From assembly GCA_043801115.1 (NCBI GenBank), contig JAZDMJ010000052.1, forward strand, positions 1 to 36,496: 36,496 nucleotides of DNA, written 5' to 3'. Both the position numbers and the translations under genes were made by a program. Source of the stretch: Candidatus Iainarchaeum sp. Lineage in GTDB: Archaea; Iainarchaeota; Iainarchaeia; Iainarchaeales; UBA10191. Positions 5,501-36,496 of the stretch are shown here, piece after piece (the stretch's first letter is position 1; each line of letters starts with the position of its first letter). Below the pieces are notes generated by a model. It did not search any database. It worked only from the letters and a program-made list of their open reading frames with translations, and had not been told where the DNA came from.

Positions 5501-7042
5501 TTGGTGAAAGTTGTGAACAATACTTTCAACGGGCAGGCTGTTCCTTCTGATTTCGATTTGAATATTGATGACAGCATTGTTTTGCAGAATACTGCTATTG
5601 AAGTAACTGCAAATTCTGCTCATTCAATCGGCGAATCAAACTTGTATGGCTACGAGTTTGTTTCAATAACTGGAGATGCAAAATGTCCGGCGGTATTGGG
5701 TGGAAGCGTTACTTTGGATGAAGGAGAAAGCATTACTTGTACAATTACAAACCAAGACATTCAGCCAAAGCTCACTTTGGTGAAAACAGTAATAAATGAT
5801 AATGGCGGAACATTGGAAGCAGGAGACTTTGCATTATACGTTTCAGGAAACCCAGTTACAAGCGGGGTTGCGAACGGCTTTGATGCAGGAAGCTATACAG
5901 CAACAGAAGACAATGTTTCAAGCTATGAAGCAAGTTCTTGGACTGGAGACTGTGCAGCAGATGGTTCAGTTACTCTTTCAGTCGGAGATGAAAAAACTTG
6001 TTACATTACAAACAATGACAAAAGGCCGCAGTTGATTGTAATAAAGCACGTGATCAACGATAACGGCGGAACTAAAGCTGCTTCAGACTTTTCAATTTCT
6101 GTTGATGCAAACAGTCCTTCTCCTTCAAGCTTTGCAGGAGAAGAAAGTCCTGGAACAATTGTTGACTTGAATGCAGGAACTTACAATGTTGACGAAGGAA
6201 CAGTGTTTGGCTATGAAAAAACTTTGTCCTCTGACTGCAGCGAAACAATTTCTGTGGGAGAAACAAAAACATGCACAATTACTAACAACGATATTTCCCC
6301 ACAATTGATTGTAATAAAGCACGTGATAAATGACAACGGTGGAACACTGCAAGCTCCAGACTTTACAATAACTGTAATTGGAACAAATGTTTCTCAAAGT
6401 TCTTTTGCGGGAGCAGAAAGCCCTGGAACAGCAATAACTCTCAATGCAGGCTCTTACAATGTTAACGAGCCAAACACTTTGGATTATGGGAAAACATTAT
6501 CTGCTGATTGCAGCGGAACAATAGATTTGAACCAGACAAAAACCTGTACAATAACAAACGACGATATTCCTGCAACAAGAACACTTGGCTTTTGGCAGAC
6601 TCACACAATTTTCACTACTTGGATTTTCCAAAACAAGCTTGGAAGCGCTTTGCTGATTGGAAGTTCGCCTCATAGGGGAACTCTTACAACAACTGCACAA
6701 ATCTTTGGAGGATTTTATGCAAGCATTCCATACAAATCAACTGGAGCAAAAAGGCAAAATGTTGACAAGACAAGAATACAACTATTGCAGCAATTGCTTG
6801 CAGCAAAACTAAACTGCGCTGCTTTCACTTGCACTTCAAGCGCTCAGAGCTTGATTTCTCAGGCAGATGCAGCATTTGCTTCCGGAAACATTTCTCAAAT
6901 GAATTCCCTTGCATCACAGCTTGATGCATACAACAATTCAGGAGACAGTATTTCTTTCCCAGCAGGATTGCCTGCTCAGGGAAGCGCTACTCCTGATGCG
7001 TCAAAAGCAATTGCAAACTTTGCGTATTGGGATGCGCCGTAA
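2507..7042 (+). CDS. Giant secreted surface/adhesin-like protein (1511 aa) with 12 tandem beta-sandwich-type repeats
   Basis: TTG at 2507 is the only in-frame start after the stop at 2489-2491. It gives a Sec-type signal peptide, MSSKIALALLVFALILPAAFA/ANL. The protein has a ~275-aa N-terminal domain, then 12 repeats of ~90 aa. Each repeat reads P(K/T/Q)L(T/I)(L/V)(I/V)K.V.N(D/N).GG......DF ... GDC ... GD.K.C.I.N.D(I/V).P. A ~155-aa C-terminal domain starts at TRTLGFWQTH. There is no C-terminal TM segment. Confidence 0.85.
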   Translation: MSSKIALALLVFALILPAAFAANLVSDFKQCANNDSPYTLGECHWIGSIIQQSNSQYFEGMSVAQRLVFTNISSTTGNIHTLTLSHQAMKSSIHAYDFITSYNQSNNPAITLNACGEEIGPPGTLGATCTSLRSGSNYILVDVPDAMGSVGGDDVASRVAAYETAFGNRQIKIYGNSPITSASLSFDGYDTDANDATQVHAFYTLTWTSSSTQVLIEMAGHLSISGDGTGISYGPGKGSSSISGGPYHFSLHRLDGDSLGKQDNQIKGADIQVPPQGTLTVIKTVITDNGGTAVSSSFNVHVKTGGVDVAGSPAAGSSTGTAYTLDPATYVVSEDSLAGYLQTSIVCDNQATDTVTIANGDNKVCTITNNDVAPTLTLIKTVTNDNGGTKAVADFPLFIGTTQVTSGVANVLNAGSYTASETNQAGYAAGVWGGDCASNGTVTLAVGDNKTCTITNDDVAPKLHLRKVVVNDNGGTAVDTAWTLTANGVGSNDVSGSTPVDSGAGLIADNFSLSESGPAGYASSDWVCFGGTQVGSNITIGIGQEATCTITNDDIQPKLTLVKTVVNNYGGQLVVADFPLFISGTPATSGTKYGLNADSYTASETNQTGYSAGSWGGDCAADGSITLAVGDDKTCTITNSDIEPKLKLVKKVINDNGGTLGVGDFDLFVGQTNVDSNVFNGFNAGSYVASEVQQYGYAASDWSGDCASDGSITLSVGDEKTCYITNNDIAPKLTLIKYVTNDNGGTLEVKDFPLFISGNPAVSGQTYDLNAGTQTASETQQYGYSSTGWAGDCATNGTITQSVGDVNTCTITNDDIQPTITLVKLVNNNFGGTKQVADFPLFVDQTSVTSGVPLGIDTGSYTASETESYGYTASDWNGDCSSNGSVTVSVGDNKVCYIQNSDIQPKLTVIKHVINDNGGNNIASDFTINVDGTSASPSSFAGSEDGNLVLLNAGDYSADEEAFSGYAKNLSGNCSGTISIGDEKTCTITNDDIAPTITLVKVVNNTFNGQAVPSDFDLNIDDSIVLQNTAIEVTANSAHSIGESNLYGYEFVSITGDAKCPAVLGGSVTLDEGESITCTITNQDIQPKLTLVKTVINDNGGTLEAGDFALYVSGNPVTSGVANGFDAGSYTATEDNVSSYEASSWTGDCAADGSVTLSVGDEKTCYITNNDKRPQLIVIKHVINDNGGTKAASDFSISVDANSPSPSSFAGEESPGTIVDLNAGTYNVDEGTVFGYEKTLSSDCSETISVGETKTCTITNNDISPQLIVIKHVINDNGGTLQAPDFTITVIGTNVSQSSFAGAESPGTAITLNAGSYNVNEPNTLDYGKTLSADCSGTIDLNQTKTCTITNDDIPATRTLGFWQTHTIFTTWIFQNKLGSALLIGSSPHRGTLTTTAQIFGGFYASIPYKSTGAKRQNVDKTRIQLLQQLLAAKLNCAAFTCTSSAQSLISQADAAFASGNISQMNSLASQLDAYNNSGDSISFPAGLPAQGSATPDASKAIANFAYWDAP
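3335..6571 (+). repeat. Twelve tandem ~270-nt domain repeats inside the giant surface-protein gene
   Basis: Units begin at GTLTVIKTVITDNGGT and end at TCTITNDDIP. Two subtypes are visible: DFPLFI..T.V.SG and DF(S/T)I.VD....SPSSFAG.E. The array contains a 46-nt exact duplicate at 4641-4686 and 5970-6015. Confidence 0.85.
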
Positions 7043-16503: not shown

Positions 16504-17409
16504 ATGACTGAAAAATGTCCCGAATGCGGTTCGACCAAAATCATCCGCGACAGTGAAAAAGGCGAAGTCATCTGCAATTCGTGTGGATTGATTTTGAGCG
16601 ACGCGAACGTTGATTTGGGCAAAGAATGGCGTTCTTTTGACAACGATTCCGGCGGAGACCGCTCTCGAACGGGCAGCCCGATGAAATACGTCAAACTCAA
16701 CAAAGGTCTGGTGACCATGATCGACCGCAGGGGAACGGACTTGCGCGGAAACAAGCTTTCCACCAAGTCCAGAGCCCAAATGTACCGCTTGATCAAATGG
16801 CATAAAAGGGCCTCCATTAGTTCGAGCATGCAGCGCAACCTGTCCATCGCGTTGACCGAACTGCGCCGGGTTTCTTCGTATTTGAACATTCCCGAACAGC
16901 TCGTCGAAGCAGCCGCGTTGTTGTACAGAAAAACCGTGAAAAAGGGCCTGATTCGCGGCCGCTTGATTGAAGCCGTCGTTGCAGCCGTTTTGTACACGGT
17001 GTGTAGAACCTACAATGTTCCGCGCACGTTGAACGAAATGAGCGAAGCGTCGGGTTTGACCAAGAAAGAGATTGGCAGAACCTACCGCTTTTTGGTCCGC
17101 GAGTTGAAGCTCGATATTCCGCTCACGAATCCAATCCACTACATTCCCCGCTTTGCCTCCGAGTTGAATCTCTCGGGCGAAGTGCAGGAAGAAGGCAGGC
17201 GGATTTTGGAAGAAGCAATCGGAAACGGCTTGATTTCCGGAAGAGGTCCTACTGGAGTCGCCGCAGCCGCCGTGTATATTGCGGGCTTGCTGAAGGGCGA
17301 GCGCAGGACGCAGAAGGAAGTCGCGAACGTTGCAGGCGTTACGGAAGTTACCATTCGCAACCGCTACCGCGAACTGAAAAAGCGCTTGAACATCGAAGTG
17401 ACGGCGTAA
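16504..17409 (+). CDS. tfb: Transcription initiation factor IIB (TFB)
   Basis: The N-terminal zinc ribbon reads CPECGSTKIIRDSEKGEVICNSCGLIL. The B-reader/linker region follows, then two cyclin-fold repeats (SIALTELRRVSSYLNIPEQLVEAAALLYRK ... and IPRFASELNLSGEVQEEGRRILEEA...). Confidence 0.95.
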   Translation: MTEKCPECGSTKIIRDSEKGEVICNSCGLILSDANVDLGKEWRSFDNDSGGDRSRTGSPMKYVKLNKGLVTMIDRRGTDLRGNKLSTKSRAQMYRLIKWHKRASISSSMQRNLSIALTELRRVSSYLNIPEQLVEAAALLYRKTVKKGLIRGRLIEAVVAAVLYTVCRTYNVPRTLNEMSEASGLTKKEIGRTYRFLVRELKLDIPLTNPIHYIPRFASELNLSGEVQEEGRRILEEAIGNGLISGRGPTGVAAAAVYIAGLLKGERRTQKEVANVAGVTEVTIRNRYRELKKRLNIEVTA

Positions 17410-29508: not shown

Positions 29509-30009
29509 ATGGAAGTTTCAAGTCGGAAACAGTTGGGCTACTTGCTTTTGATTTTTGGCGTTGTATTGGCGCTCGTGCTGGGTTTTGTCAAAATTTCGTA
29601 CGACGCGCAGGCCGCGCAATTGTGCCAACTCACTCCCCAAGACCAGATGGCGCAGTGTCCCGTGCACACGGACAATTCTTCGTGGTTGTTCATGGCCGGT
29701 TTTGCCATTGCCGCGGTATTGGTCGTAGTTGGGGCCTATTTCGCTTTTTTCGAAAAGCGCGAACAGGACCCGCGCCTGGAAATCGCGAAAAAGGCATTTA
29801 AAGAGGTGGACGTTTCCAAGCTTTCGGAAGAAGAAGGAAAAGTGTATACGCTGTTGAAGAACGCCAGCGGGTCGTTATTCCAATCCGACTTGGTGCGCGA
29901 AACAGGCTATTCCAAAGTGAAACTCTCTCGCATTCTCGACCGTTTGGAACAGTTGGAATTGGCCGAGCGAAAGCGCCGTGGCATGGCAAACTTGGTCGTA
30001 TTGCGCTAA
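29509..30009 (+). CDS. Membrane-tethered winged-HTH transcriptional regulator (two N-terminal TM helices)
   Basis: TM1 is LGYLLLIFGVVLALVLGFV. The loop SYDAQAAQLCQLTPQDQMAQCPVHTDNSS carries 2 Cys plus Met and His. TM2 is WLFMAGFAIAAVLVVVGAYFAFF. The cytoplasmic wHTH is EEEGKVYTLLKNASGSLFQSDLVRETGYSKVKLSRILDRLEQLELAERKRRGMANLV. Confidence 0.65.
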   Translation: MEVSSRKQLGYLLLIFGVVLALVLGFVKISYDAQAAQLCQLTPQDQMAQCPVHTDNSSWLFMAGFAIAAVLVVVGAYFAFFEKREQDPRLEIAKKAFKEVDVSKLSEEEGKVYTLLKNASGSLFQSDLVRETGYSKVKLSRILDRLEQLELAERKRRGMANLVVLR

Positions 30010-30091
30010 AACCGCTCTCTGAAACTAGTTTCTCCACTACTTGCATATGCTGTTTCAGCCGCTAGTATGACATGAATTGGAGGTTTTTTCA

Positions 30092-30805
30092 ATGAGTGTT
30101 CAATCCAAGCTCGACATCGCGGCTTTCGGAATCCTGGCCGTGGCGTTGATAGTTTCAGTATTGAATTTCGCGGCATTGTCCGGCGTTCAAACTTCGGCCG
30201 CCAATGCCATGGCGGCGGCAGCGGCTTCCCCATCAACAGGATTGTCTGGCGCTTCCAGCGGTTCGTCTTCGGCGGCTTCCACGATTTCCTTTTCGGAGAT
30301 CCAGCCCAAAGGCGTTCCCGCAGTTTACGGCGCTGAATTGGGAATTTCGTACGACGACATCAGCGCTTCGAACCCGCAAAAGGCGGACGCGACCGACCAA
30401 AAACTGGCCAGTCTGGAAAACAGCATTTCGCTGGACGGCAACGCGCTCGCGCGCTATATCTTGATAACGAACTCGATTAGTTGTGAATACTGTTGCGGCG
30501 CTCCGGCCATTACGACGGCGGACGGAAGTCCGGCGTGCGGTTGCGCGCACAGCGGAGCCATGCGGGGCCTGGCCAAGTATTTGATCAAACAGCACGGTTC
30601 CGAGTTTTCGGACATCCAAATTTTGGAAGAATTGGGAAAGTGGAAAACATTGTACTTTCCTTCCAATATGGTCCAGAAAGCCAATGTTCTCGACGCGCAA
30701 GGAATCGCCTTGAACTTTGTGAGCCTGGCTTCCAACCAATACCGCGGAATCGAGCAGGGCGCTACTGTATCGCAAGGTTCGACCCAGCAAGTGGGAGGAT
30801 GTTAG
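30092..30805 (+). CDS. N-terminally anchored extracytoplasmic Cys-rich protein ending in QQVGGC, uncharacterised
   Basis: The ATG at 30092 follows the SD ggagg at 30079-30083. The order is a TM anchor, a Ser/Ala-rich linker and a globular part. That part carries SCEYCCGAPAITTADGSPACGCAHSGAMRGL. The C-terminus is TQQVGGC. Confidence 0.7.
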   Translation: MSVQSKLDIAAFGILAVALIVSVLNFAALSGVQTSAANAMAAAAASPSTGLSGASSGSSSAASTISFSEIQPKGVPAVYGAELGISYDDISASNPQKADATDQKLASLENSISLDGNALARYILITNSISCEYCCGAPAITTADGSPACGCAHSGAMRGLAKYLIKQHGSEFSDIQILEELGKWKTLYFPSNMVQKANVLDAQGIALNFVSLASNQYRGIEQGATVSQGSTQQVGGC

Positions 30806-30806
30806 C

Positions 30807-30911
30807 ATGAACTGGTTCAAACGAAATCCCAAGCCGGAAGAAAAATTGGAAACAGTTCCAATCGAATCCGGAGAAGAAAAGAAAAAAAAGCGGAAAGGAG
30901 GTTGTTGTTGA
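30807..30911 (+). CDS. 34-codon micro-ORF, polybasic with C-terminal GGCC
   Basis: This ORF is absent from the ORF track because it is shorter than 60 aa. The product is MNWFKRNPKPEEKLETVPIESGEEKKKKRKGGCC. The ATG lies 1 nt after the upstream stop and 8 nt after ggagga. Its TGA directly abuts the next ATG at 30912, so the ORF exactly fills the gap between the two genes. Confidence 0.4.
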   Translation: MNWFKRNPKPEEKLETVPIESGEEKKKKRKGGCC

Positions 30912-31190
30912 ATGGAAAAAGAACAGTCCAAAAGCGTTGAAGGCAGGGGATTGAACTGGAAAACGTACGCGCTGTTGACGGTTGTGGGAATCGTTCTCGT
31001 GCTCGGCGTCGTGCAAGCGTTTCAAATCAGCGCCTTGCAGCAGCAGTTCGGCGGAAACGGAACCGCTTCTCTTTCGAGTGGAGGAGGAGACGCATACGCT
31101 CAAATGATGGCGGAAATGCACCCCGGCCAGGCAAGTTCTTCGAACACTGGCACTACGAGCAATACCGCCCAGCAAGTGGGAGGATGCTAG
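30912..31190 (+). CDS. Small N-terminally anchored protein with a Met/His stretch, ending in QQVGGC
   Basis: The 92-aa product has the TM helix TYALLTVVGIVLVLGVV, then a Gly/Ser-rich region, then YAQMMAEMHPGQ. The C-terminus is AQQVGGC. The last 19 nt before the Cys codon wobble base are identical to those of the 30092 gene. Confidence 0.65.
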   Translation: MEKEQSKSVEGRGLNWKTYALLTVVGIVLVLGVVQAFQISALQQQFGGNGTASLSSGGGDAYAQMMAEMHPGQASSSNTGTTSNTAQQVGGC

Positions 31191-31194
31191 TTTC

Positions 31195-31734
31195 ATGAAG
31201 CGATGGCTCGGGATTCCGGCCGCGTTGGCCGGAATTCTTTCCTTTTCAAGCATTGCGCACGCGCACTGCCCGCTGTGCACGGCAGCGGTGGGCGGCGCTG
31301 TCATCGGCGCTGAATACTTGGGCTTGGGAGCGGGAATCGTCGGATTGTTCGTCGGAGCCTTTGCCATTTCGACGGGAATTTGGATTGGAAGGAAAATCAA
31401 AACCCGGTACATTCCCTTCCAATTGCCCTTGATTGTGCTCGCTTCTTTCCTCTTAACCGTTATTCCATTGCTCGGCGTTTCCCCCCAAACGCTTTACATT
31501 CCCGTATTGTGGTTCGGACAGGCGGGAACCGCGTTCAACAAAGTGTATTTCACTCCCAAACTATTGCTCGGCTCGGCCATCGGCGCCCTTCTCACCCTCT
31601 TCGCGTTGAAGCTCCACACCTTTCTCAAAAAGTGGAAGGGAAGAGTATTGTTTCCCTTTCAGGGAATCGCCTTCACGCTCGCAATCCTGCTAATGGCCAG
31701 CGGCGTTTTGTACATTGCATGGGCGGGCGGTTGA
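31195..31734 (+). CDS. Polytopic membrane protein; predicted signal peptide followed by HCPLC
   Basis: The N-terminus is MKRWLGIPAALAGILSFSSIAHA/HCPLCTAAVGG, followed by about 4 more hydrophobic helices. The ATG lies 11 nt after ggagga. The stop is directly followed by the next ATG. Confidence 0.7.
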   Translation: MKRWLGIPAALAGILSFSSIAHAHCPLCTAAVGGAVIGAEYLGLGAGIVGLFVGAFAISTGIWIGRKIKTRYIPFQLPLIVLASFLLTVIPLLGVSPQTLYIPVLWFGQAGTAFNKVYFTPKLLLGSAIGALLTLFALKLHTFLKKWKGRVLFPFQGIAFTLAILLMASGVLYIAWAGG

Positions 31735-32208
31735 ATGAAAGAAGAATGGATGAAAAAAATGCGCGCCTTTTCCGGCAAGGAATTGGACTTGTCCAAGGAT
31801 GAGGACTTGAGCATTGCGCTTATGAATTTGATTTCGCTCGAAGAGCATCTCGCTTTCAGCGCGGCCAAGAGCGGGGGCGAAAAATTTCTGCAAATGCTTT
31901 CCGAAATCCGCCCCTTGCGCAAGCAATTATTGCAGCACTTCGTGCAGGAGAGCGAGGCCGAAGAATGGTGCATTTCCAAACACTTGCTTGCCGGAAGCAT
32001 GCGCTTGTTCGAAGCGGGAACGAAAGAACTGGACGCGGGGCGAAAGGAAGAAGCGCAGTCCTTTTTCGACAGCGCCTTCCAGCTCTACTCCTTGTTCTTC
32101 GCCCTGCACTTGAAGCTCGTTCCTCCGAATGAAGTGGTTGCAAAGCCCGTTTCTTCCGGCCGTTGGGCGGAAATGGTCAAAAAACTCGTGGACTGCTGCA
32201 AGGAGTGA
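31735..32208 (+). CDS. Soluble helical protein ending in DCCKE, uncharacterised
   Basis: The 157-aa product has no TM segment. It contains SIALMNLISLEEHLAFSAAKSGGEKFLQML and ends in the vicinal Cys pair VDCCKE. Confidence 0.6.
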   Translation: MKEEWMKKMRAFSGKELDLSKDEDLSIALMNLISLEEHLAFSAAKSGGEKFLQMLSEIRPLRKQLLQHFVQESEAEEWCISKHLLAGSMRLFEAGTKELDAGRKEEAQSFFDSAFQLYSLFFALHLKLVPPNEVVAKPVSSGRWAEMVKKLVDCCKE

Positions 32209-32212
32209 AAGA

Positions 32213-33091
32213 ATGAGAGCGGAAGTCTTTCACGGAATCCTCGCCGGACTGTTATTGTTGACGGCGTACGTGGGCCTTTTGTACGGATTGAACGGTTCCG
32301 CACACGTGCTAGAACAGTTCCGCGACTTCGGAATTTTAATCGCGGTTATTGTAGTCGGTTTCGGCTTTCAAGTGGGATTGTTTTCGTACGCGCGCAGCGA
32401 GTTGAAGGCCAAGCAGGCCCGCGCGCAGCTCGCGGCCACGGGAAGCGTCAGTGGGGGAACCATGATCGCCTGCTGCCTGCACCACGTTACGGAAATTCTT
32501 CCCCTCGTCGGCGCCACCGCTTTTGGCTTGGCGTTGGCCGAGTACACGTTCCAGTTCCTCTTCGTCGGCGCCCTTTCCGCGATTGTGGGAGCACTGGCAA
32601 TGCTTGCTGTTTTGCAGCAGCACAACGTGTTTCCCTTTCCTTCCGTGCAGCGCGTTCCGTGGAAGGAAGCGCGCAACTTCGGAGTTTCTTTTGCGCTCAT
32701 CGCAGCCGTTGCCGTTTTTCTGTTCTCCTCGTTTCCCTTGAATACAATTGCCGCCTCTCCCAACTCCCTCTCGCTTTCTTCCCAGTCCGATTCGCAAAAC
32801 AGCGTGCAAGTGGATGTAACTCCCCGAATTTCTTCCGCGCAGGCTGCGTTTGAAATTAGTTTTACGACGCACTCGGGCAGCATGGACTTTCGAGTGGAAG
32901 ACATTTCGCGGTTGGAAGACGATTTGGGAAATTCCTATCGCGTTCTTTCTTGGAACGGTTCTCCGCCAGGAGGACACCACAGAAGCGGAACGCTTTCTTT
33001 CGAACCCTTGTCCCCGCAAGCCAAAACGATTACATTGAAATTGTCCAACGTGGGCGGAGTGGATCGCGTGTTCCAATGGAGTTTGAAGTAA
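32213..33091 (+). CDS. Membrane protein with intramembrane ACCLHH motif and C-terminal extracytoplasmic beta-rich domain (GGHH motif)
   Basis: The start was trimmed to the ATG at 32213, after the SD aaggag. About 5 TM helices are present. The motif GGTMIACCLHHVTEILPLVG is reminiscent of the vicinal-Cys helices of MerT/MerF-type transporters. The C-terminal domain reads VQVDVTP...FEISFTTHSGSMDF...WNGSPPGGHHRSGTLSF. Confidence 0.65.
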   Translation: MRAEVFHGILAGLLLLTAYVGLLYGLNGSAHVLEQFRDFGILIAVIVVGFGFQVGLFSYARSELKAKQARAQLAATGSVSGGTMIACCLHHVTEILPLVGATAFGLALAEYTFQFLFVGALSAIVGALAMLAVLQQHNVFPFPSVQRVPWKEARNFGVSFALIAAVAVFLFSSFPLNTIAASPNSLSLSSQSDSQNSVQVDVTPRISSAQAAFEISFTTHSGSMDFRVEDISRLEDDLGNSYRVLSWNGSPPGGHHRSGTLSFEPLSPQAKTITLKLSNVGGVDRVFQWSLK

Positions 33092-33092
33092 A

Positions 33093-33251
33093 ATGGTCAA
33101 CGTAAAAAAGGCAGTCGATCTGATTTGCGGCATGGAAGTCGATCCGACAAAGGCTATCTCCGCATACGGCCACTTCTTTTGTTCGGATTCGTGCGCGAAA
33201 GCGTTTGTGGTCGAAAAACAGGAAAATCGTGAAAGGAAAGGAATGGAATGA
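33093..33251 (+). CDS. YHS/TRASH-domain metal-binding protein (52 aa)
   Basis: This ORF is absent from the ORF track. The product is MVNVKKAVDLICGMEVDPTKAISAYGHFFCSDSCAKAFVVEKQENRERKGME. The CGM.V...........FCS..C..F pattern is the YHS/TRASH signature. The stop overlaps the next ATG in an ATGA arrangement. Confidence 0.7.
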   Translation: MVNVKKAVDLICGMEVDPTKAISAYGHFFCSDSCAKAFVVEKQENRERKGME

Positions 33252-33484
33252 ATTTGGGAGAAACGATTGCCCGCATTCGCGAAAACCACTTGCTGATGAT
33301 GGCGGTGTGTTGCATTGTTCCCGTCGCGTTCGCAGCAATGCTGTTCGTGCTTGGTTTCCGGACGTACGCGTTATGGTTGGTCATTTTGTTGTGCCCGCTC
33401 ATGCACTTGTTCATGATGAAAGACATGCATTCGGCGGAGAAAAAAGAACATTCGTGCGACAAACATAAATCGGAAGGAGATTGA
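33248..33484 (+). CDS. DUF2933-like small membrane protein (CC and CPLMH motifs)
   Basis: HLLMMAVCCIVPVAFAAMLFVLG....LVILLCPLMHLFMMKDMH matches my recollection of the DUF2933 family, which is typically found in heavy-metal loci. Confidence 0.65.
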   Translation: MNLGETIARIRENHLLMMAVCCIVPVAFAAMLFVLGFRTYALWLVILLCPLMHLFMMKDMHSAEKKEHSCDKHKSEGD

Positions 33485-33487
33485 AAC

Positions 33488-33568
33488 ATGAATAGCAAAG
33501 AAATCATTTTGGTTGCAGGCATACTCGTCGCATTTGCCGTCATGCTGTATATCATGCATCCGTTTTGA
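33488..33568 (+). CDS. 26-codon single-TM micro-ORF
   Basis: The product is MNSKEIILVAGILVAFAVMLYIMHPF. The SD aaggag at 33474-33479 lies 8 nt before the ATG. The ORF fills the gap between neighbouring genes. It is absent from the ORF track. Confidence 0.35.
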   Translation: MNSKEIILVAGILVAFAVMLYIMHPF

Positions 33569-33576
33569 GGCCGTCT

Positions 33577-34398
33577 ATGCTAGAATTCGTGCAACAATAC
33601 TTTGTCGAACCCATTACGAAGTTCGGCGGATACAATATTGTGAATACAGTCGTCTACTTGTCCATTCTGGTTATAGCGGCCATTCTGATTTTCCGGTTGT
33701 TCCACAAGCGCGTGCAGTTTGACTTGAGATTCGGTCTTGCAGTGCTTCCCTTTATTGTATTGGGCGGAGCCGTGCGCGCGTTGGAAAACATTCGTTTGCT
33801 TCCGCGCTCGGCCAATCCATTGGAATTGGGCTTTTACACAATAACGCCCGGCATCTACCTTGCAGTCGGTTTATTCGTCATCATTGCACTCTTGTTTTCG
33901 CTCTGGCTGGGACAAAAAATAGGCAGAGATTATGTTTGGATTTTTGGACTCATTGGAACCGCCGTTGCGCTTCCTGTTTTGATTTTCGACCTTTTGCTCT
34001 TTCAATCATGGTTTGGAGCGGCCGAAGCCGTCCTATTGGCAGTCGTGCTTTCTTCGGTGGCGTGGTTGGCGTTGAAAAAGTGGAAGCCTTCTTTCGGAAA
34101 GGACATGTTGTCCCTTTTGGCCATTGCGGGACAGGCATTGGACGGCAGTACGACTTTTGTGGCGACACAGTTCAATTCGTGCACGGAAGAATTCATGGGC
34201 TCTCACATGCTCGTTTCGTTCGCGCCGTGGCTGTTTCCCGTACTCAAAGTTGTGCTCATGACTGCCGTGGTTTATTTGTTGGATGAGGAAGTGAAAAACG
34301 AGAATTTGCGCGGCTACGTCAAAGTTGTGTTAATCATTCTCGGTTTCGCGCCCGCCTTGCACGACTGGTTCGCGCTGGCGTTGGGAGCGTGTTCGTAA
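33577..34398 (+). CDS. Polytopic membrane protein, DUF63-like (archaeal)
   Basis: The ATG at 33577 is preferred, with an alternative TTG at 33565. About 7 TM helices are present. The N-terminus is FVEPITKFGGYNIVNTVVYL, and the conserved-looking loop is AGQALDGSTTFVATQF. The family call is from memory only. Confidence 0.5.
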   Translation: MLEFVQQYFVEPITKFGGYNIVNTVVYLSILVIAAILIFRLFHKRVQFDLRFGLAVLPFIVLGGAVRALENIRLLPRSANPLELGFYTITPGIYLAVGLFVIIALLFSLWLGQKIGRDYVWIFGLIGTAVALPVLIFDLLLFQSWFGAAEAVLLAVVLSSVAWLALKKWKPSFGKDMLSLLAIAGQALDGSTTFVATQFNSCTEEFMGSHMLVSFAPWLFPVLKVVLMTAVVYLLDEEVKNENLRGYVKVVLIILGFAPALHDWFALALGACS

Positions 34399-34404
34399 TG
34401 CGGG

Positions 34405-34413
34405 ATTTAAATA
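34405..34413 (+). promoter_or_regulatory. TATA-like box (atttaaata): possible internal promoter of the metal cluster
   Basis: The box lies in the 55-nt gap before the 34454 gene. The SD aaaggaggt at 34437-34445 follows it. Confidence 0.3.
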
Positions 34414-34453
34414 GGAGAATCGCGTTTTTGATATTCAAAGGAGGTATTTTTGT

Positions 34454-34699
34454 ATGGCAGAATTTTCGAAAATCAGCGTGAAGGCAGCGACCATTACGGG
34501 AGCCGTTTTGGGCGTGTTGTGTGGAATTTTTTGGAGCGCGTGGGGCATGACGGGATTGTCTTACGCGGGAATGGGAATGATGGGTGCCCTGTTCGGCGCT
34601 TGGGGCGTTGCGGGCGCAATCATTGCCAATGTCATCCTAGGTGCAATCGTTGGAGCATTGATCGGCATCATTTACAACTGGGCGCTATCGCTCAAGTGA
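34454..34699 (+). CDS. Small Gly/Met-rich membrane protein (glycine-zipper-like), hypothetical
   Basis: The 81-aa product contains GMTGLSYAGMGMMGALFGAWGVAGAIIANVILGAIVGALIG. A strong SD lies upstream. Confidence 0.55.
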   Translation: MAEFSKISVKAATITGAVLGVLCGIFWSAWGMTGLSYAGMGMMGALFGAWGVAGAIIANVILGAIVGALIGIIYNWALSLK

Positions 34700-34759
34700 G
34701 GCATTCAGCGAGCGGTTTTAAAGCGCTAGCTTTTTCATTTTTGTAAAGGAGTAAAAAAC

Positions 34760-35167
34760 ATGGAATTGAAAATATTGGTGGCCGCGTTGACCATTGTAGC
34801 GGTTCTTGTGGTAAGCGTGGAGTTTTACTTTTTTTCGGGCGCTTCCGCCCAGACTTCTTCCGTTTCCGCTTCTGACCCTCCCGTTCCAACAGGAGGGGTT
34901 CAAAAAGTGTCGCTCCGCGCGCTCTCTTCTGGAGTGTACGACAAGCCTTCCATTACCGTCCAAAAAGGCGTTCCCGTCGAATTGACGTTCAGCGCGGACG
35001 ACGACGCGGGGTGCGGGCACACGTTGATTATTCGCGACTTTGGCGTGCAAATTTCCCTGCAAGCCGGGCAGAGCAAAACCGTTACGTTCACGCCGGACAA
35101 GGTCGGCAGTTTCGAATACAGTTGTTCGATGCGCATGTTCCGCGGTACCTTGATTGTAAAGGGATGA
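34760..35167 (+). CDS. Cupredoxin-like domain protein (Cupredoxin_1/EfeO-type), N-terminally anchored
   Basis: After the TM anchor the sequence reads YDKPSITVQKGVPVELTFSADDDAGCGHTLIIRDFGVQISLQAGQSKTVTFTPDKVGSFEYSCSMRMFRGTLIV. Candidate ligands are Cys/His and C.M.M. Confidence 0.7.
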   Translation: MELKILVAALTIVAVLVVSVEFYFFSGASAQTSSVSASDPPVPTGGVQKVSLRALSSGVYDKPSITVQKGVPVELTFSADDDAGCGHTLIIRDFGVQISLQAGQSKTVTFTPDKVGSFEYSCSMRMFRGTLIVKG

Positions 35168-35367
35168 AGATGAAAAAAGCATTGAAAGTGAAAGGGATGC
35201 ACTGCAAATCTTGCGAAGCACTGTTGAAAGAAGTGGTGGAAGAGACGGGCGCGAAAAACGTTTCTGCGTCCACTTCGAAAGGGGAAATTGTTGCCGAATT
35301 TGCCGACGATGCCCAACTTCTAGCGGCCAAAAAGGCCATTCAAGGCGAAGGGTATCAGGTGCAATAG
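35164..35367 (+). CDS. HMA-domain metallochaperone (CopZ-like)
   Basis: The ATG overlaps the upstream stop in an ATGA arrangement. The product MKMKKALKVKGMHCKSCEALLKEVVEE...EGYQVQ carries the GM.C..C motif. The longer ORF-track version starting at 35011 overlaps the cupredoxin gene and was trimmed. Confidence 0.8.
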   Translation: MKMKKALKVKGMHCKSCEALLKEVVEETGAKNVSASTSKGEIVAEFADDAQLLAAKKAIQGEGYQVQ

Positions 35368-35368
35368 A

Positions 35369-36288
35369 ATGGAACACACGTTGAAAGTTTCCGGCCTTTC
35401 TTGCGGCGCGTGCGAACGCATCGTCGAACGCACCATTCAACAATCCGGTTCCGCCAATATTCTCGCATTTGACTTCCAGCGTGGAACTGTAAAACTAGAA
35501 GCGGAAAGGAACAAGTAGAGGTCATTCGAGAAGCATTGGAACGAAAAGGATTTCCTTCTCGCACATTGAAAGAATTCGAATCCCTTTCGGGCGGAGAAGG
35601 ATTTTCGAATGCTGGACGAGTTCTTCGTCATGTTATTTTTGGCCATCCTGCCTTTGTTTTCGAACGCAAGTTGCTGGGTTATACTACTCTCGCCCTCTTG
35701 GCCTCGCTGGCAATTTCTTTTCTTTTTGTCGGCTTTTTGAATGCCCGCCCCTTTCTTCCTCTAATGGTGTTGGGAAGTGTCGCCATTGCGTTGGGCATCG
35801 GTGCCATGTTCCACTTTCTCGCGTTCGGCCGCCAAAATTGCAGTACGGGAATGATGGCGGGCATGGGAACGGGAATGATTTTGGGATTTTTAGTGGGCGC
35901 GCTTTTCGGCGCCTCGAGCGGAATGTTCATCGGTTCAGTGATTGGAATTTCGGCTGGAATAGGCCTTGGAATTCTGGCAGGAAAATGCTGTGGCAACATG
36001 GGTGTATTGGAAGGAATGATGGCGGGGTTGATGGCAGGAACCATGGGTGCGATGTTGAGCGTCATGCTGTACAACGACCACCAGTTCGAGTTTTTGGTTA
36101 TTTTGTGGGTTGTTTCCGCTTTCATCCTCGCCGGCCTTTCCTACATGCTCGTGAAAGAAAACGGTCCCGTTCCCGCGAACAAAAAACTCTCTCCCTGGAC
36201 GCTCTTGGCGTTCTCAATTATTTTCTCTCTTGTAGTGGACGTGCTGGTGGTATGGGGTCCCAAGTACGGCGTTGTTTGGAGGTTCTGA
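35369..36288 (+). pseudogene. HMA domain fused to a Met/Gly/Cys-rich polytopic membrane domain, interrupted by a frameshift (or sequence error)
   Basis: Frame A (35369-35518) reads MEHTLKVSGLSCGACERIVERTIQQSGSANILAFDFQRGTVKLEAERNK*. The rest of the HMA fold, (E)QVEVIREALERKGFPSR, continues in the -1 frame, which is open from 35473. That frame runs into the membrane domain ending at 36288, with motifs NCSTGMMAGMGTGM, GKCCGNMG and GMMAGLMAGTMGAM. One extra A in the run ggaaagg (35503-35509) would restore a single ORF. Confidence 0.6.
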
Positions 36289-36496
36289 ATGGCGAAAAAA
36301 TCCCTGGACATTGTCGGAATGCACTGCGCTTCGTGCGCCACGCTGATTCAGCGCCGCCTTTCCAAAGTTCCCGGAGTTTCGCAGGCCAATGTAAACTATG
36401 CGAACCAGAAAGCGACCATTGAGTGCGGCGAAACAGTTTCTTCGCAAAAACTCGTTCAGACCGTGGAAAAAGCGGGCTACAAGGCCTTCGACTCGG
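36289..36496 (+). CDS. copA: Heavy-metal (Cu-type) P1B-ATPase, N-terminal HMA domain only; 3' end cut by window edge
   Basis: The ATG at 36289 directly follows the upstream stop. The product starts MAKKSLDIVGMHCASCATLIQRRLSKVPGVSQANVNYANQKATIECGE...VEKAGYKAF. The ORF is open to the end of the window. Only the HMA domain is visible, so the ATPase identity is inferred from context. Confidence 0.6.
   Translation, partial: MAKKSLDIVGMHCASCATLIQRRLSKVPGVSQANVNYANQKATIECGETVSSQKLVQTVEKAGYKAFDS

What the first reader, a model, noticed from the sequence alone, without database searches (positions are those of the whole stretch)
30077..36496. About 16 translationally coupled genes join six unnameable cysteine-motif proteins to a copper-type metal module
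From 30092 to the window edge every gene is on the + strand. Gaps are 0-60 nt, and several stops overlap or abut the next start (30911/30912, 31734/31735, 33248-33251, 35164-35167, 36288/36289).

The 3' half is recognisable metal hardware: YHS/TRASH, DUF2933-like, cupredoxin, two HMA domains and the start of a P1B-ATPase.

I cannot assign the six ORFs in the 5' half (30092-33091) to any family. Each carries a conspicuous thiol motif:
- CEYCCG...CGCAH plus a QQVGGC end
- a polybasic GGCC end
- a Met/His stretch plus a QQVGGC end
- a signal peptide followed by HCPLC
- a soluble protein ending in DCCKE
- an intramembrane ACCLHH motif plus an extracytoplasmic GGHH domain

These sit on both sides of the membrane: anchored outside, polytopic, and cytoplasmic. 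That arrangement looks like a relay for a thiophilic metal (Cu(I), Ag, Hg or Cd), or a thiol/disulfide shuttle that feeds the exporter. This is the best candidate in the window for an undescribed system.
Basis: partly seen in the sequence, partly recalled or inferred. Interest (0 to 1): 0.8.

Follow-up and report, generated by a model that had tools for sequence, protein, structure and literature searches.

The report
DPANN archaeal cysteine-protein copper gene cluster
A tightly packed archaeal operon joins five conserved, unannotated cysteine/histidine-motif protein families, found in hundreds of DPANN archaeal species, to ordinary copper-export genes; it is most likely an undescribed copper-handling relay at the cell membrane.

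Summary

- **3' half:** recognisable copper hardware. It has a YHS/TRASH-like protein, DUF2933, Cupredoxin_1, two HMA proteins and an HMA-led gene. In syntenic relatives that last gene is a Cu(I)-type P1B-ATPase.
- **5' half:** five of the six "unnameable" ORFs are real, strongly conserved families with no Pfam, NCBIfam or PDB match. All named homologues are DPANN archaea. The 34-aa GGCC ORF is not conserved.
- **Conserved order:** membrane HTH, then CEYCC protein, small MVGGC-tail protein, AHCPLC membrane protein, DCCKE four-helix bundle, then the CCxHH/GHH protein.
- **Metal link by association:**
  - CopG/DUF411 or TRASH genes are often inserted inside the core.
  - A P1B-ATPase lies within 10 kb in 14 of 26 fully flanked loci.
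  - Relatives of the CCxHH protein are fused to HMA or YHS domains.

The best reading is a membrane-face copper (thiophilic metal) relay or buffer built from new families. This rests on association only, and the mechanism is untested. A thiol-disulfide role is not excluded.

The parts
29509..30009 (+). Membrane-anchored winged-helix regulator (two TM helices, then DUF7343/MarR-like HTH). The extracytoplasmic loop carries a semi-conserved C...CPxH.
   Evidence: Pfam DUF7343 41.4 bits, MarR_2 28.9 bits. A homologue lies upstream of the CEYCC gene in 62 of 80 species loci. Loop C39 is conserved in 72%, C50 in 83% and H53 in 56% of sequences.
30092..30805 (+). 'CEYCC' protein. N-in single TM, Ser/Ala-rich stalk, then an extracytoplasmic helical domain with invariant C-E-Y-C-C ... 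C-G-C-x-H and an MVGGC/QVGGC carboxy-terminus.
   Evidence: 1709 homologous clusters, none with a Pfam domain; all those carrying a name are DPANN. Relatives in 441 GTDB species genomes. Invariant residues listed. AF2 pLDDT 89.5 with no PDB fold match. Positive-inside rule 2.66 vs 0.89.
30807..30911 (+). 34-aa Lys-rich ORF ending GGCC. It is in frame with the next gene and separated from it only by TGA.
   Evidence: Present in the sequence. No homologue in 85 loci. The closest relative, L001, has no such insert. TGA is an ordinary stop in this window. Status uncertain.
30912..31190 (+). 's92' single-pass protein. It has a TM helix with the VQAFQI motif, an extracytoplasmic Met/His motif (MMAEMHP) and a QQVGGC carboxy-terminus.
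   Evidence: Found in 71 of 80 loci directly after CEYCC. The tail is MVGGC in 66 of 79 sequences and varies synonymously at DNA level. 17 of 79 carry a cytoplasmic N-terminal CC or CxxC.
31195..31734 (+). 'M179' polytopic membrane protein. A signal peptide with an AxA-type site is followed by invariant H-C-P-L-C; there is also a conserved FPFQG.
   Evidence: Alignment A3. Position -1 is Ala in 54 of 55 sequences and -3 is V/A/S/T/I in 54 of 55, before HCPLC. No Pfam or PDB match. Present in 56 of 80 loci.
31735..32208 (+). 'S157' cytoplasmic four-helix bundle. It has invariant E-E-H, W-C-x-S-K-H and M-R, and a carboxy-terminal DCCKE.
   Evidence: 2218 homologous clusters, none with a Pfam domain; all those carrying a name are DPANN. 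Mean column identity 64%. AF2 helical bundle, pLDDT 78. No significant PDB fold or sequence match. Present in 41 of 80 loci.
32213..33091 (+). 'M292' protein. A membrane module with S-M-I-A-C-C-x-H-H in a TM helix is joined to an extracytoplasmic beta domain with NTHS...PGGHHRSG.
   Evidence: The two modules are often separate genes. Pfam DUF5643 is sub-threshold. Relatives are fused to YHS (P0410) or HMA (P0414). The family lies in a classical cop locus in L088.
33093..33251 (+). 52-aa YHS/TRASH-like Cys protein.
   Evidence: Weak Pfam hits. An HMM built from it hits YHS N-termini of P1B-ATPases at 1e-10 to 5e-15. Small TRASH-like ORFs occur in 31 of 80 loci, often between s92 and M179.
33248..33484 (+). 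DUF2933 small membrane protein with CC and CPLMH motifs.
   Evidence: Pfam DUF2933 32.6 bits. Present in 16 of 80 loci. Also lies next to the bacterial YHS-M292 fusion.
33488..33568 (+). Conserved 26-aa hydrophobic mini-ORF (MNSKEIILVAGILVAFAVMLYIMHPF). Its stop overlaps the start of the DUF63 gene.
   Evidence: The L001 counterpart is MNTNEIILVAVILVALAGMLYIMHLF.
33565..34398 (+). DUF63 / AliA-AliB family membrane protein (archaeal lipoprotein lipidation family).
   Evidence: Pfam PF01889 170.6 bits. Function of the family from PMC12462473. Present in only 5 of 80 related loci.
34454..34699 (+). 81-aa Gly-rich two-TM protein with no family.
   Evidence: Homologue in only 2 of 80 species loci, plus the closest relative's locus L001/L006.
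34760..35167 (+). Membrane-anchored Cupredoxin_1 protein.
   Evidence: Pfam 52.4 bits. Present in 20 of 80 loci.
35164..35367 (+). HMA metallochaperone (GMHCKSC).
   Evidence: Pfam HMA 30.5 bits.
35369..35518 (+). Short HMA-like protein (GLSCGAC), 49 aa.
   Evidence: Pfam HMA 20.6 bits, below the cut-off of 24.8.
35536..36288 (+). 'M250' Met-rich polytopic membrane protein with conserved CxTGMM, GMxxGM and CCG motifs.
   Evidence: No Pfam hit. Found in 9 of 80 loci, always beside Cupredoxin_1 and HMA. Conservation shown.
36289..36496 (+). HMA domain (GMHCASC) opening a gene cut by the window edge; presumably a P1B-ATPase.
   Evidence: Pfam HMA 66.8 bits. In L062 and L025 the same order, Cupredoxin-HMA-M250, is followed by a 775-782 aa ATPase. 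Neighbouring ATPases carry CPC + MxxSS in 21 of 25 cases.

Best explanation
**What it is**
This is a copper-homeostasis super-operon of a DPANN archaeon.
- The 3' module is a conventional Cu(I) efflux set: a TRASH/YHS protein, DUF2933, a cupredoxin, HMA chaperones and a P1B-ATPase.
- The 5' module is a conserved, previously unannotated 'core': a membrane HTH regulator, CEYCC, s92, M179, S157 and usually M292.
- I interpret the core as a copper (or, more generally, thiophilic-metal) binding and hand-over relay that works at and across the cytoplasmic membrane.

**Proposed mechanism, outside the membrane (inferred)**
- Two N-in, C-out tethered proteins, CEYCC and s92, present soft ligands on flexible Ser/Gly stalks. 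These ligands are a 5-Cys/1-His knot, Met/His motifs and a terminal Met-x-x-x-Cys-COOH.
- M179, after signal-peptide cleavage, exposes His1-Cys2-Pro-Leu-Cys5 at the membrane surface.
- M292 adds a His-rich beta domain.

**Proposed mechanism, membrane and cytoplasm (inferred)**
- M292 also places a vicinal Cys-Cys-x-His-His site inside a TM helix, which is the likely translocation site.
- On the inside, three elements could exchange Cu(I) with the HMA chaperones and the ATPase: the S157 four-helix bundle (internal E-E-H/C-x3-H site and DCCKE tail), the cytoplasmic CC tails of many s92 proteins, and the TRASH protein.
- The membrane-bound HTH, with a Cys pair in its outer loop, is the likely sensor.

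**Shown versus inferred**
- Shown: conservation, gene order, motifs, predicted topology and folds, and genomic and fusion association with copper genes.
- Inferred: metal binding, metal identity, direction of flow (buffering or detoxification versus supply), and any protein-protein contacts.
For: **1. Real, constrained families**
- CEYCC: 1709 clusters and 441 species genomes.
- S157: 2218 clusters with 64% mean column identity.
- All motif Cys/His residues are invariant or nearly so.
- The MVGGC tail is conserved despite free synonymous variation.

**2. Conserved order**
- HTH, CEYCC, s92, (TRASH/CopG), M179, S157, M292 across DPANN phyla.

**3. Copper genes inside and around the core**
- A DUF411/CopG lipoprotein lies between s92 and M179 in 26 of 80 loci (Pfam 85.5 bits).
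- Other neighbours:

| Marker | Loci of 80 |
|---|---|
| Small TRASH | 31 |
| PadR+TRASH regulator | 16 |
| Met-rich SHOCT | 24 |
| Cupredoxin | 20 |

- In 26 fully flanked loci, 14 have a P1B-ATPase and 22 have any recognised metal marker.
- The neighbouring ATPases carry CPC + M(A/S)xSS, the Cu(I)/Ag(I) P1B-1 signature known from the family literature (21 of 25).

**4. Fusions**
- YHS+M292 in a bacterium and HMA+M292 membrane module.
- GHH beta domain + CEYCC domain, P0354.
- Polytopic CPxC membrane domain + CEYCC domain, P0384 and the L007 491-aa protein.

**5. M292 in classical cop loci**
- In L088 it sits beside an AsnC-TRASH regulator, Cupredoxin_1, YHS and an HMA-ATPase.

**6. Topology**
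- Positive-inside rule places CEYCC and s92 domains outside.
- An AxA site precedes the invariant His of M179.
- S157 has no TM helix and a helical-bundle model.
Against: - There is no direct evidence of metal binding. No family has a detectable homologue of known function.
- About half of fully flanked loci have no ATPase within 10 kb, and 4 of 26 have no recognised metal marker. In those loci, for example L004/L018 with little beyond a small TRASH gene, the core stands almost alone, so its primary role might be something else.
- The 5-Cys knot of CEYCC could be a structural zinc site or disulfides.
- DsbA-like, CcdA-like and thioredoxin-like neighbours also recur (14, 8 and 9 of 80 loci).
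- The background frequency of ATPases in random DPANN windows was not measured here. It was estimated from general knowledge at a few per cent.
- Small TRASH-like ORFs called with a home-made HMM may include false positives.
Confidence: 0.55

Rival explanations
1. A thiol-disulfide (redox) system of the cell envelope. M179 (CPLC) and CEYCC would act as oxidoreductases or isomerases. They would keep extracytoplasmic cysteines in the right state, possibly under copper stress, in the manner of the bacterial Scs or Dsb/CcdA systems. S157 and the cytoplasmic CC tails would supply or remove reducing equivalents.
For: - CxxC at the outer face of M179 is invariant.
- Several redox-type neighbours recur: DsbA-like genes in 14 of 80 loci, CcdA/SfLAP-like membrane proteins in 8, and thioredoxin-like lipoproteins in 9.
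- From general knowledge, DPANN archaea mostly lack quinones, so a DsbB/VKOR-independent route would be needed.
Against: - No thioredoxin fold is predicted in CEYCC or S157. Both are helical.
- M179 has only one conserved Cys pair and no second membrane Cys to carry electrons across.
- Vicinal CC with HH in a TM helix (M292), Met/His motifs, and HMA/YHS fusions point to metal ligation rather than redox chemistry.
- The window itself holds no thioredoxin-fold gene in the cluster.
Confidence: 0.17
2. A copper acquisition route rather than a detoxification or buffering route. The core captures scarce copper outside and imports it through M292/M179. S157, TRASH and HMA then pass it to a P1B-ATPase that metallates extracytoplasmic cupredoxins. 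This would be analogous to the CcoA-CopZ-CcoI or YcnJ/YcnI routes of bacteria.
For: - Cupredoxin or multicopper-type genes lie nearby in 20 of 80 loci, some 460-627 aa long.
- The core is very widespread and conserved, as expected for a housekeeping function.
- M292 resembles importers with vicinal Cys in the membrane, as in MerT-type transport (general knowledge).
- Membrane-tethered extracellular Cu-binding domains accompany importers in B. subtilis ycn (PMC8424229).
Against: - CopG/DUF411, PadR-TRASH regulators and Met-rich proteins are typical of resistance loci.
- No evidence on direction is available.
- Many DPANN genomes have few known cuproenzymes (general knowledge, not tested here).
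Confidence: 0.15
3. A reactive-sulfur (persulfide/thiosulfate) relay. Terminal and vicinal cysteines would carry sulfane sulfur between the outside and the cytoplasm.
For: - Rhodanese-domain proteins occur in 8 of 80 loci. Their C-terminal region faintly resembles the CEYCC domain (hhalign E=0.003, probability 11%).
- YgaP-like TM proteins occur in 14 of 80 loci.
Against: - The rhodanese link is weak and peripheral.
- There are no TusA/DsrE, persulfide dioxygenase or sulfur-metabolism genes in the window.
- Metal-domain fusions and insertions are far more frequent.
Confidence: 0.05
4. A cell-surface anchoring device. The carboxy-terminal V-G-G-C resembles a lipobox, and its cysteine would be lipidated, perhaps by the AliA/AliB homologue in the cluster. 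This would pin CEYCC and s92 to the membrane at both ends.
For: - VGGC fits the loose lipobox pattern.
- A DUF63/AliA-AliB gene lies in the window.
- AliA is required for archaeal lipoprotein lipidation and is present in DPANN (PMC12462473).
Against: - The motif follows a long hydrophilic Ser/Gly linker, not a signal-peptide h-region.
- DUF63 is near the core in only 5 of 80 loci.
- Both proteins already have an N-terminal TM anchor.
- C-terminal lipobox lipidation is unknown.
Confidence: 0.03

Closest known systems
Archaeal cop locus (CopA P1B-ATPase, TRASH/HMA chaperone CopT/CopZ, TRASH-containing regulator CopR), e.g. Sulfolobus and Pyrococcus (PMC7830388)
   Same: The 3' half of the window has the same parts: a TRASH/YHS protein, HMA proteins and an HMA-led ATPase. 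Related loci carry PadR- or AsnC-TRASH regulators.
   Different: - The regulator here is a membrane-anchored DUF7343 HTH without TRASH.
- Five further families (CEYCC, s92, M179, S157, M292), plus M250 and DUF2933, have no counterpart in the described cop loci.
Bacterial periplasmic copper-resistance proteins (CopG/DUF411, CusF, PcoC/CopC, PcoE)
   Same: - Soft-ligand (Cys/Met/His) proteins outside the cytoplasmic membrane, encoded next to a Cu(I) exporter.
- A true DUF411/CopG lipoprotein is inserted in the core in 26 of 80 related loci.
   Different: - The window itself has no DUF411.
- CEYCC is helical with no PDB fold match.
- The proteins are membrane-tethered, not soluble.
- They use terminal residues (C-terminal Cys, predicted N-terminal His) as conserved positions.
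Mercury transport proteins MerT/MerC/MerF with MerP
   Same: M292 has a vicinal Cys pair inside a TM helix. Its relatives carry an N-terminal cytoplasmic HMA or YHS domain, the same logic as Cys-pair transporters working with HMA proteins.
   Different: - No Pfam MerT/MerC/MerF match at E<0.1.
- CC is followed by HH.
- An extracytoplasmic His-rich beta domain is attached.
- There is no MerA or MerR in the window.
- Neighbouring ATPases are of the copper type.
Bacillus subtilis ycnKJI (CopC-CopD importer YcnJ, membrane-tethered Cu-binding YcnI, repressor YcnK; PMC8424229)
   Same: A membrane-tethered extracytoplasmic beta-type domain with conserved His lies next to a polytopic membrane protein and a dedicated regulator.
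   Different: - No sequence relationship was detected: there are no CopC, CopD or DUF1775 hits.
- The DPANN set adds Cys-rich components and cytoplasmic partners.
Eukaryotic Ctr1 copper transporter
   Same: s92 resembles it in layout: a Met/His-rich ectodomain, a TM helix, and a Cys-containing cytoplasmic tail.
   Different: - s92 has a single TM helix and the opposite orientation (N-in).
- There is no MxxxM pore motif and no homology.
- Oligomerisation is unknown.
PCYCGC family (PF13798)
   Same: Cys-dense motif with C-G-C-x-H and membrane-anchored extracytoplasmic proteins. True PCYCGC genes occur next to the core in 6 of 80 loci and in L088.
   Different: - No Pfam hit for any of 24 CEYCC members.
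- hhalign probability is 0.6%.
- CEYCC is therefore not a member.
Scs (suppressor of copper sensitivity) / DsbD-CcdA thiol-disulfide systems
   Same: An envelope Cys-motif system genetically tied to copper, with a CxxC at the outer membrane face.
   Different: - No thioredoxin folds in the core.
- No pair of membrane-embedded Cys in one protein able to pass electrons across.

Membership tests
P1B-1 Cu(I)-ATPase efflux operon (CopA/CopZ type) | HMA domain with GMxCxxC in a chaperone and at the ATPase N-terminus | tested here: met
   HMA scores 30.5 and 66.8 bits, with GMHCKSC and GMHCASC. The second small HMA is sub-threshold at 20.6 bits.
P1B-1 Cu(I)-ATPase efflux operon (CopA/CopZ type) | ATPase core with DKTGT, TM CPC and MxxSS motifs | not testable with these tools
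   The window ends 69 codons into the gene. In related loci, 21 of 25 neighbouring ATPases have CPC + M(A/S)xSS + DKTGT. Syntenic L062 and L025 have a 775-782 aa ATPase at this position.
TRASH/YHS domain | Match to the YHS/TRASH profile (C-x18-22-C-x3-C) | tested here: inconclusive
   Pfam YHS E=0.088, below the cut-off. The motif C-x18-C-x3-C is present. A family HMM hits YHS N-termini of ATPases at 1e-10 to 5e-15.
PCYCGC (PF13798), for the CEYCC protein | Pfam profile match or profile-profile similarity | tested here: not met
   No hit for 24 members at E<=1. hhalign probability 0.6%.
MerT/MerC/MerF mercury transporters, for M292 | Profile match, plus MerR/MerA/MerP context | tested here: not met
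   No Pfam match at E<0.1. No mer genes in the window. Only the vicinal Cys-in-TM feature is shared.
DUF5643 (PF18705), for the M292 C-terminal domain | Score above the Pfam gathering threshold | tested here: inconclusive
   26.4 bits against a cut-off of 34, E=6.9e-6. The domain is precomputed for 2 of 25 relatives.
AliA/AliB (DUF63, PF01889), for 33565-34398 | Full-length profile match | tested here: met
   170.6 bits, covering profile positions 2-268 of 269. AliA versus AliB was not resolved.
CopG (DUF411) | DUF411 profile match and CxCC motif | tested here: not met
   None of the window's proteins match. Such proteins are present in 26 of 80 related loci.
Thioredoxin-fold thiol-disulfide oxidoreductases (DsbA/Scs/ResA), for CEYCC and M179 | Thioredoxin fold around the CxxC | tested here: not met
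   The CEYCC model is helical with a small Cys knot. No Pfam thioredoxin hit. M179 is polytopic.
Histidine-brace type N-terminal Cu site, for M179 | Signal-peptide cleavage directly before an invariant His | tested here: met
   Ala at -1 in 54 of 55 sequences, small or aliphatic residue at -3 in 54 of 55, and His at +1 in every sequence with the motif. Cleavage itself and a second His ligand were not tested.

The most novel reading that the evidence does not exclude
Five protein families with no homologue of known function would form a new kind of trans-membrane copper relay. Four were found only in DPANN archaea; the fifth (M292) also occurs in other archaea and bacteria.
- Single-pass proteins would carry thiolate ligands at both termini: a cytoplasmic CC and an extracytoplasmic Met-x3-Cys-COOH.
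- A membrane protein would expose a processed His1-Cys2-x-x-Cys5 N-terminus.
- A CCxHH intramembrane site would pass Cu(I) between the outside and a dedicated cytoplasmic four-helix-bundle carrier.

Because the core is so widespread and conserved in these host-dependent archaea, it could be their main route of copper supply or defence at the host interface.
Probability: 0.3. Interest if true: 0.8.

Novelty: new variant of a known kind. Interest (0 to 1): 0.7.

Why it matters
- **Dark matter with a hypothesis.** DPANN archaea are a large, mostly uncultured part of archaeal diversity, and most of their conserved genes are of unknown function. This cluster gives five such families a concrete, testable functional hypothesis. 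Two of them have roughly two thousand sequence clusters each and 50-65% identity across phyla.
- **Soluble targets for biochemistry.** The CEYCC ectodomain and S157 are confidently or fairly well modelled and have no structural relatives in the PDB.
- **Reach beyond DPANN.** The analysis identifies an unannotated membrane family (CCxHH plus a GHH beta domain) that belongs to copper loci in other archaea and bacteria.
- **If the relay is real.** It would add a new architecture to copper trafficking, based on terminal-residue ligands on tethered proteins on both faces of the membrane.

Tried and rejected
- **Origin contig.** An exact look-up of the S157 protein found no record.
- **CEYCC as a divergent PCYCGC protein.** Rejected: Pfam scan of 24 members found nothing, and hhalign probability is 0.6%.
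- **M179 related to the recurrent 'CPGC' membrane family that is fused to CEYCC-like domains.** hhalign probability is 1.6%, so not supported.
- **Sequence profiles of CEYCC, S157 and M179 against all PDB chains.** Nothing below E=1.
- **Foldseek of both AF2 models against the PDB.** Nothing below E=0.7.
- **Member-by-member Pfam scans of M179 and S157.** Only scattered chance hits, such as PetL for TM segments.
- **TGA read-through or recoding joining the 34-aa ORF to s92.** Rejected as a general code change, because TGA ends eight of the 16 genes checked in the cluster, seven of them besides the 34-aa ORF. A nonsense mutation in a longer ancestral N-terminus remains possible.
- **MVGGC conserved only because its codons form a Shine-Dalgarno site (GGAGG) for the next gene.** Rejected: all four codons vary synonymously across loci.
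- **Rhodanese-fused C-terminal domain as a CEYCC paralogue.** Only weak support (E=0.003, probability 11%).
- **Literature searches** for the families, the motifs or a DPANN copper cluster found no description.
- **The search for homologous proteins for M292.** It scored only the 8000 candidates sharing most words and returned 25 hits, so that family's size is not known.

Full report
**1. What is in the window**

The ORF list and start/stop inspection show 17 + strand genes tiled from 29509 to the window edge.

- Three junctions abut exactly: 30911/30912, 31734/31735 and 36288/36289.
- Two junctions overlap by 4 nt: 33248-33251 and 35164-35167.
- Most other gaps are 1-60 nt.
- The apparent 80-nt gap at 33485-33564 is filled by a 26-aa hydrophobic ORF (33488-33568). 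Its stop overlaps the next start, and it is conserved in the closest relative.
- G+C content of the cluster (0.47-0.55) is similar to the rest of the window, so composition gives no sign of an island.
- The rest of the window is archaeal. It holds a TFB-like gene at 16504-17409 and large repeat-rich surface proteins (read by eye).

**2. The recognisable part**

| Gene | Result |
|---|---|
| DUF2933 | 32.6 bits |
| DUF63 (AliA_AliB) | 170.6 bits |
| Cupredoxin_1 | 52.4 bits |
| HMA, first | 30.5 bits |
| HMA, second (49 aa) | 20.6 bits, sub-threshold |
| HMA on the edge gene | 66.8 bits |

- The 52-aa Cys protein is below the Pfam YHS threshold. An HMM built from it and its relatives hits the YHS N-termini of P1B-ATPases at 1e-10 to 5e-15.
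- In loci L062 and L025, the same order Cupredoxin-HMA-M250 is followed by a 775-782 aa ATPase.
- 21 of 25 neighbouring ATPases carry CPC plus M(A/S)xSS plus DKTGT. From the family literature, this is the Cu(I)/Ag(I) P1B-1 signature.
- DUF63 is the AliA/AliB family, needed for archaeal lipoprotein lipidation (PMC12462473).

**3. The six 'unnameable' ORFs**

None reaches a Pfam or NCBIfam threshold. Five are nevertheless large, strongly constrained families.

*CEYCC (30092-30805)*
- It has 1709 homologous clusters in the 5.8-billion-protein collection. None has a Pfam domain, and all named ones are DPANN.
- Relatives are found in 441 GTDB species genomes.
- An exhaustive HMMER scan of 1.84 billion representatives finds only 317 clusters, so this is a compact family.
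- Invariant residues include C131, E132, Y133, C134, C135, C149, C151 and H153, plus a carboxy-terminal (M/Q)VGGC.
- The AF2 model is confident (pLDDT 89.5): an N-terminal TM helix, a disordered stalk, then a helical domain with a small Cys knot.
- It has no Foldseek match in the PDB (best E=2) and no sequence match.

*s92 (30912-31190)*
- This is a single-pass protein with a VQAFQI helix.
- Its ectodomain carries either ETYEEMMARMHPDQ or GWTEDEKMxYEHHGTLPAR.
- It has the same MVGGC carboxy-terminus, in 66 of 79 distinct sequences.
- 17 of 79 also carry a cytoplasmic N-terminal CC or CxxC, often [DE]CCK.

*M179 (31195-31734)*
- It has an invariant A-H-C-P-L-C. Ala occupies -1 in 54 of 55 sequences, V/A/S/T/I occupies -3 in 54 of 55, and position -2 is variable.
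- By the -3/-1 rule this is a signal-peptidase site. The mature protein would begin His-Cys-Pro-Leu-Cys at the outer membrane face. This is inference.

*S157 (31735-32208)*
- It has 2218 clusters, none with a Pfam domain; all those carrying a name are DPANN.
- Mean column identity is 64%.
- Invariant residues are E36, E37, H38, C79, H83, M89, R90, C154 and C155.
- The AF2 model is a four-helix bundle with a floppy DCCKE tail.
- It has no significant PDB match.

*M292 (32213-33091)*
- It consists of two modules that are often separate genes.
- The first is a four-TM module with S-M-x-A-C-C-x-H-H.
- The second is a TM- or lipobox-anchored beta domain with NTHSVxLD...GHHxSG.

*The 34-aa ORF (30807-30911)*
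- It has no homologue in 85 loci.
- It is in frame with s92 and separated from it only by TGA.
- The closest relative has no such insert. Its s92 starts MEKECCKNE, where the window has MEKEQSKSVE.
- TGA is a normal stop in this window.
- It may be a remnant of a longer CC-bearing N-terminus or a lineage-specific peptide. I would not count it as a family.

**4. Conserved neighbourhood**

I fetched 85 loci. Eighty come from one genome per species; the other five come from three protein look-ups. I called ORFs and searched them with iterated HMMs of every window gene.

- The order HTH, CEYCC, s92, M179, S157, M292 recurs in Woese-, Pace-, Nano-, Aenigm-, Micr- and Iainarchaeota.
- All-against-all clustering of neighbouring ORFs, followed by Pfam, revealed further recurrent partners:
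  - a DUF411/CopG lipoprotein placed between s92 and M179 (26 of 80 loci; 85.5 bits);
  - PadR+TRASH regulators (16 of 80);
  - Met-rich SHOCT proteins (24 of 80);
  - DUF5676 (22 of 80);
  - YgaP-like TM proteins (14 of 80);
  - DsbA-like proteins (14 of 80);
  - PCYCGC proteins (6 of 80).
- In the 26 loci with at least 6 kb upstream and 8 kb downstream, 14 have a P1B-ATPase and 22 have at least one recognised metal marker.
- From general knowledge, a DPANN genome of about 1 Mb has one or two such ATPases. A random 20-kb window would then hold one a few per cent of the time. I could not measure this background.

**5. Fusions**

- Relatives of M292 outside DPANN carry cytoplasmic metal-binding domains:
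  - P0410, from a Rhodospirillales MAG, is YHS + M292.
  - P0414 is HMA + the M292 membrane module.
- P0410 lies next to DUF2933 and an ICMT-like gene.
- On a 1.55-Mb contig (L088), an M292 homologue sits between Cupredoxin_1/YHS/HMA-ATPase and an AsnC-TRASH regulator, with PCYCGC nearby.
- Distant CEYCC-domain proteins are fused to other parts of the set:
  - P0354 carries the GHH beta domain (BLASTP E=2e-4 to M292's C-terminus).
  - P0384, and a 491-aa protein in L007, carry polytopic membrane domains with CPxC. The L007 protein also starts with a TRASH-like C-x2-C...C-x3-H segment that Pfam did not confirm.
- All these fusions keep a carboxy-terminal Cys.

**6. Topology**

- K+R counts are 2.66 before and 0.89 after the CEYCC helix, and 2.62 and 1.38 for s92. 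This puts both N-in, with the Cys-rich parts outside.
- S157 has no hydrophobic segment.

**7. Interpretation**

The most economical reading is a copper, or broader thiophilic-metal, handling system whose core is made of new families.

- Outside, tethered proteins offer soft ligands on flexible stalks.
- M179 and M292 offer membrane-surface and intramembrane sites.
- Inside, S157, the s92 N-tails and TRASH connect to HMA proteins and the exporter.
- The membrane-bound HTH has a semi-conserved Cys pair in its outer loop and is a plausible sensor.
- I put about 0.55 on this class of function.
- Direction is open between buffering or detoxification around the exporter and acquisition for cupredoxins.

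The thiol-disulfide reading is about 0.17. The core has no thioredoxin fold and no electron path, and the HMA/YHS fusions argue for metal. Persulfide relay and C-terminal lipidation are minor possibilities.

**8. Comparison with known systems**

- The 3' half is an ordinary archaeal or bacterial cop module.
- The 5' half is not a member of PCYCGC, Mer transporters, DUF411 or thioredoxin-fold families.
- It works most like periplasmic copper-resistance sets (CopG, CusF, CopC) combined with a Cys-pair membrane transporter (MerT logic).
- s92 has a Ctr1-like layout of Met/His outside and Cys inside, without homology.
- Literature searches found no description of these families or of a DPANN copper cluster. 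The library does not cover all journals.

**9. Verdict**

- The finding is real and more than chance.
- The metal link survives the tests that could have refuted it.
- The components are undescribed, and the mechanism remains inference.
- Novelty: a new variant of a known kind of system, copper homeostasis, built from new families.
- Interest: 0.7.

Noticed in passing
window 33488-33568 (+): A conserved 26-aa hydrophobic mini-ORF (MNSKEIILVAGILVAFAVMLYIMHPF) lies between DUF2933 and DUF63. Its stop overlaps the DUF63 start. The counterpart in L001 is 19/26 identical.
   Followed up: partly
window 30807-30914 (+): The 34-aa ORF ending GGCC is in frame with the s92 gene and separated from it only by TGA. 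The window's s92 has lost the N-terminal CC that its closest homologue carries (MEKECCKNE). This may be a split gene or a nonsense-interrupted N-terminus.
   Followed up: partly
window 33565-34398 (+): A DUF63/AliA-AliB (archaeal lipoprotein lipidation) homologue is embedded in the metal cluster. It is near the core in only 5 of 80 related loci. Several neighbours in other loci (CopG-like proteins, GHH beta domains) have lipoboxes.
   Followed up: partly
window 30790-30806 and 31176-31194 (+): In this genome the codons for the V-G-G-C tail (GTG GGA GGA TGY) form a GGAGG Shine-Dalgarno-like site 8-12 nt before the next start codon. Other genomes vary these codons synonymously, so it is not a general constraint.
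   Followed up: yes
window 35536-36288 (+); L019, L020, L025, L062 and others: 'M250' is a Met-rich polytopic membrane family with conserved CxTGMM, GMxxGM and CCG motifs and no Pfam match. It is always found beside Cupredoxin_1 and HMA. It is another unannotated candidate copper membrane protein.
   Followed up: partly
L086:7001-8086, L088:7001-7948; P0410, P0414: The CCxHH + GHH-domain family (M292) occurs outside DPANN. It is fused to YHS or HMA and lies inside classical cop loci of a bacterium and of an organism with a 1.55-Mb contig. Pfam gives it no family.
   Followed up: partly
L041:14508-15008, L007:18363-19835 (-), P0384: A recurrent membrane family of about 170 aa has G-x-C-P-x-C in a TM helix and LPFKGxE, and is present in 14 of 80 loci. 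A similar CPxC membrane domain is fused to CEYCC-like domains. No Pfam match, and no detectable relation to M179.
   Followed up: partly
L083:12695-13144 (+): In a locus where no S157 homologue was detected, a four-TM protein of about 150 aa ends in VVECCKNW. This is the same kind of CC tail as S157's DCCKE(W), which suggests the CC tail is a portable module.
   Followed up: no
window 46-2394 and 2507-7042 (+): Two very large secreted or surface proteins (782 and 1511 aa) are built from many repeats of a unit of about 90 aa (...NDNGGT...SDF...SE....GY....W.GDC...). They were not analysed.
   Followed up: no
L008 (JAGVNS010000010.1): A 3-kb contig carries the full DPANN-type core (CEYCC, s92, M179, S157, split M292), but its record is titled 'Thaumarchaeota archaeon'. 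This is probably a binning or labelling error.
   Followed up: no
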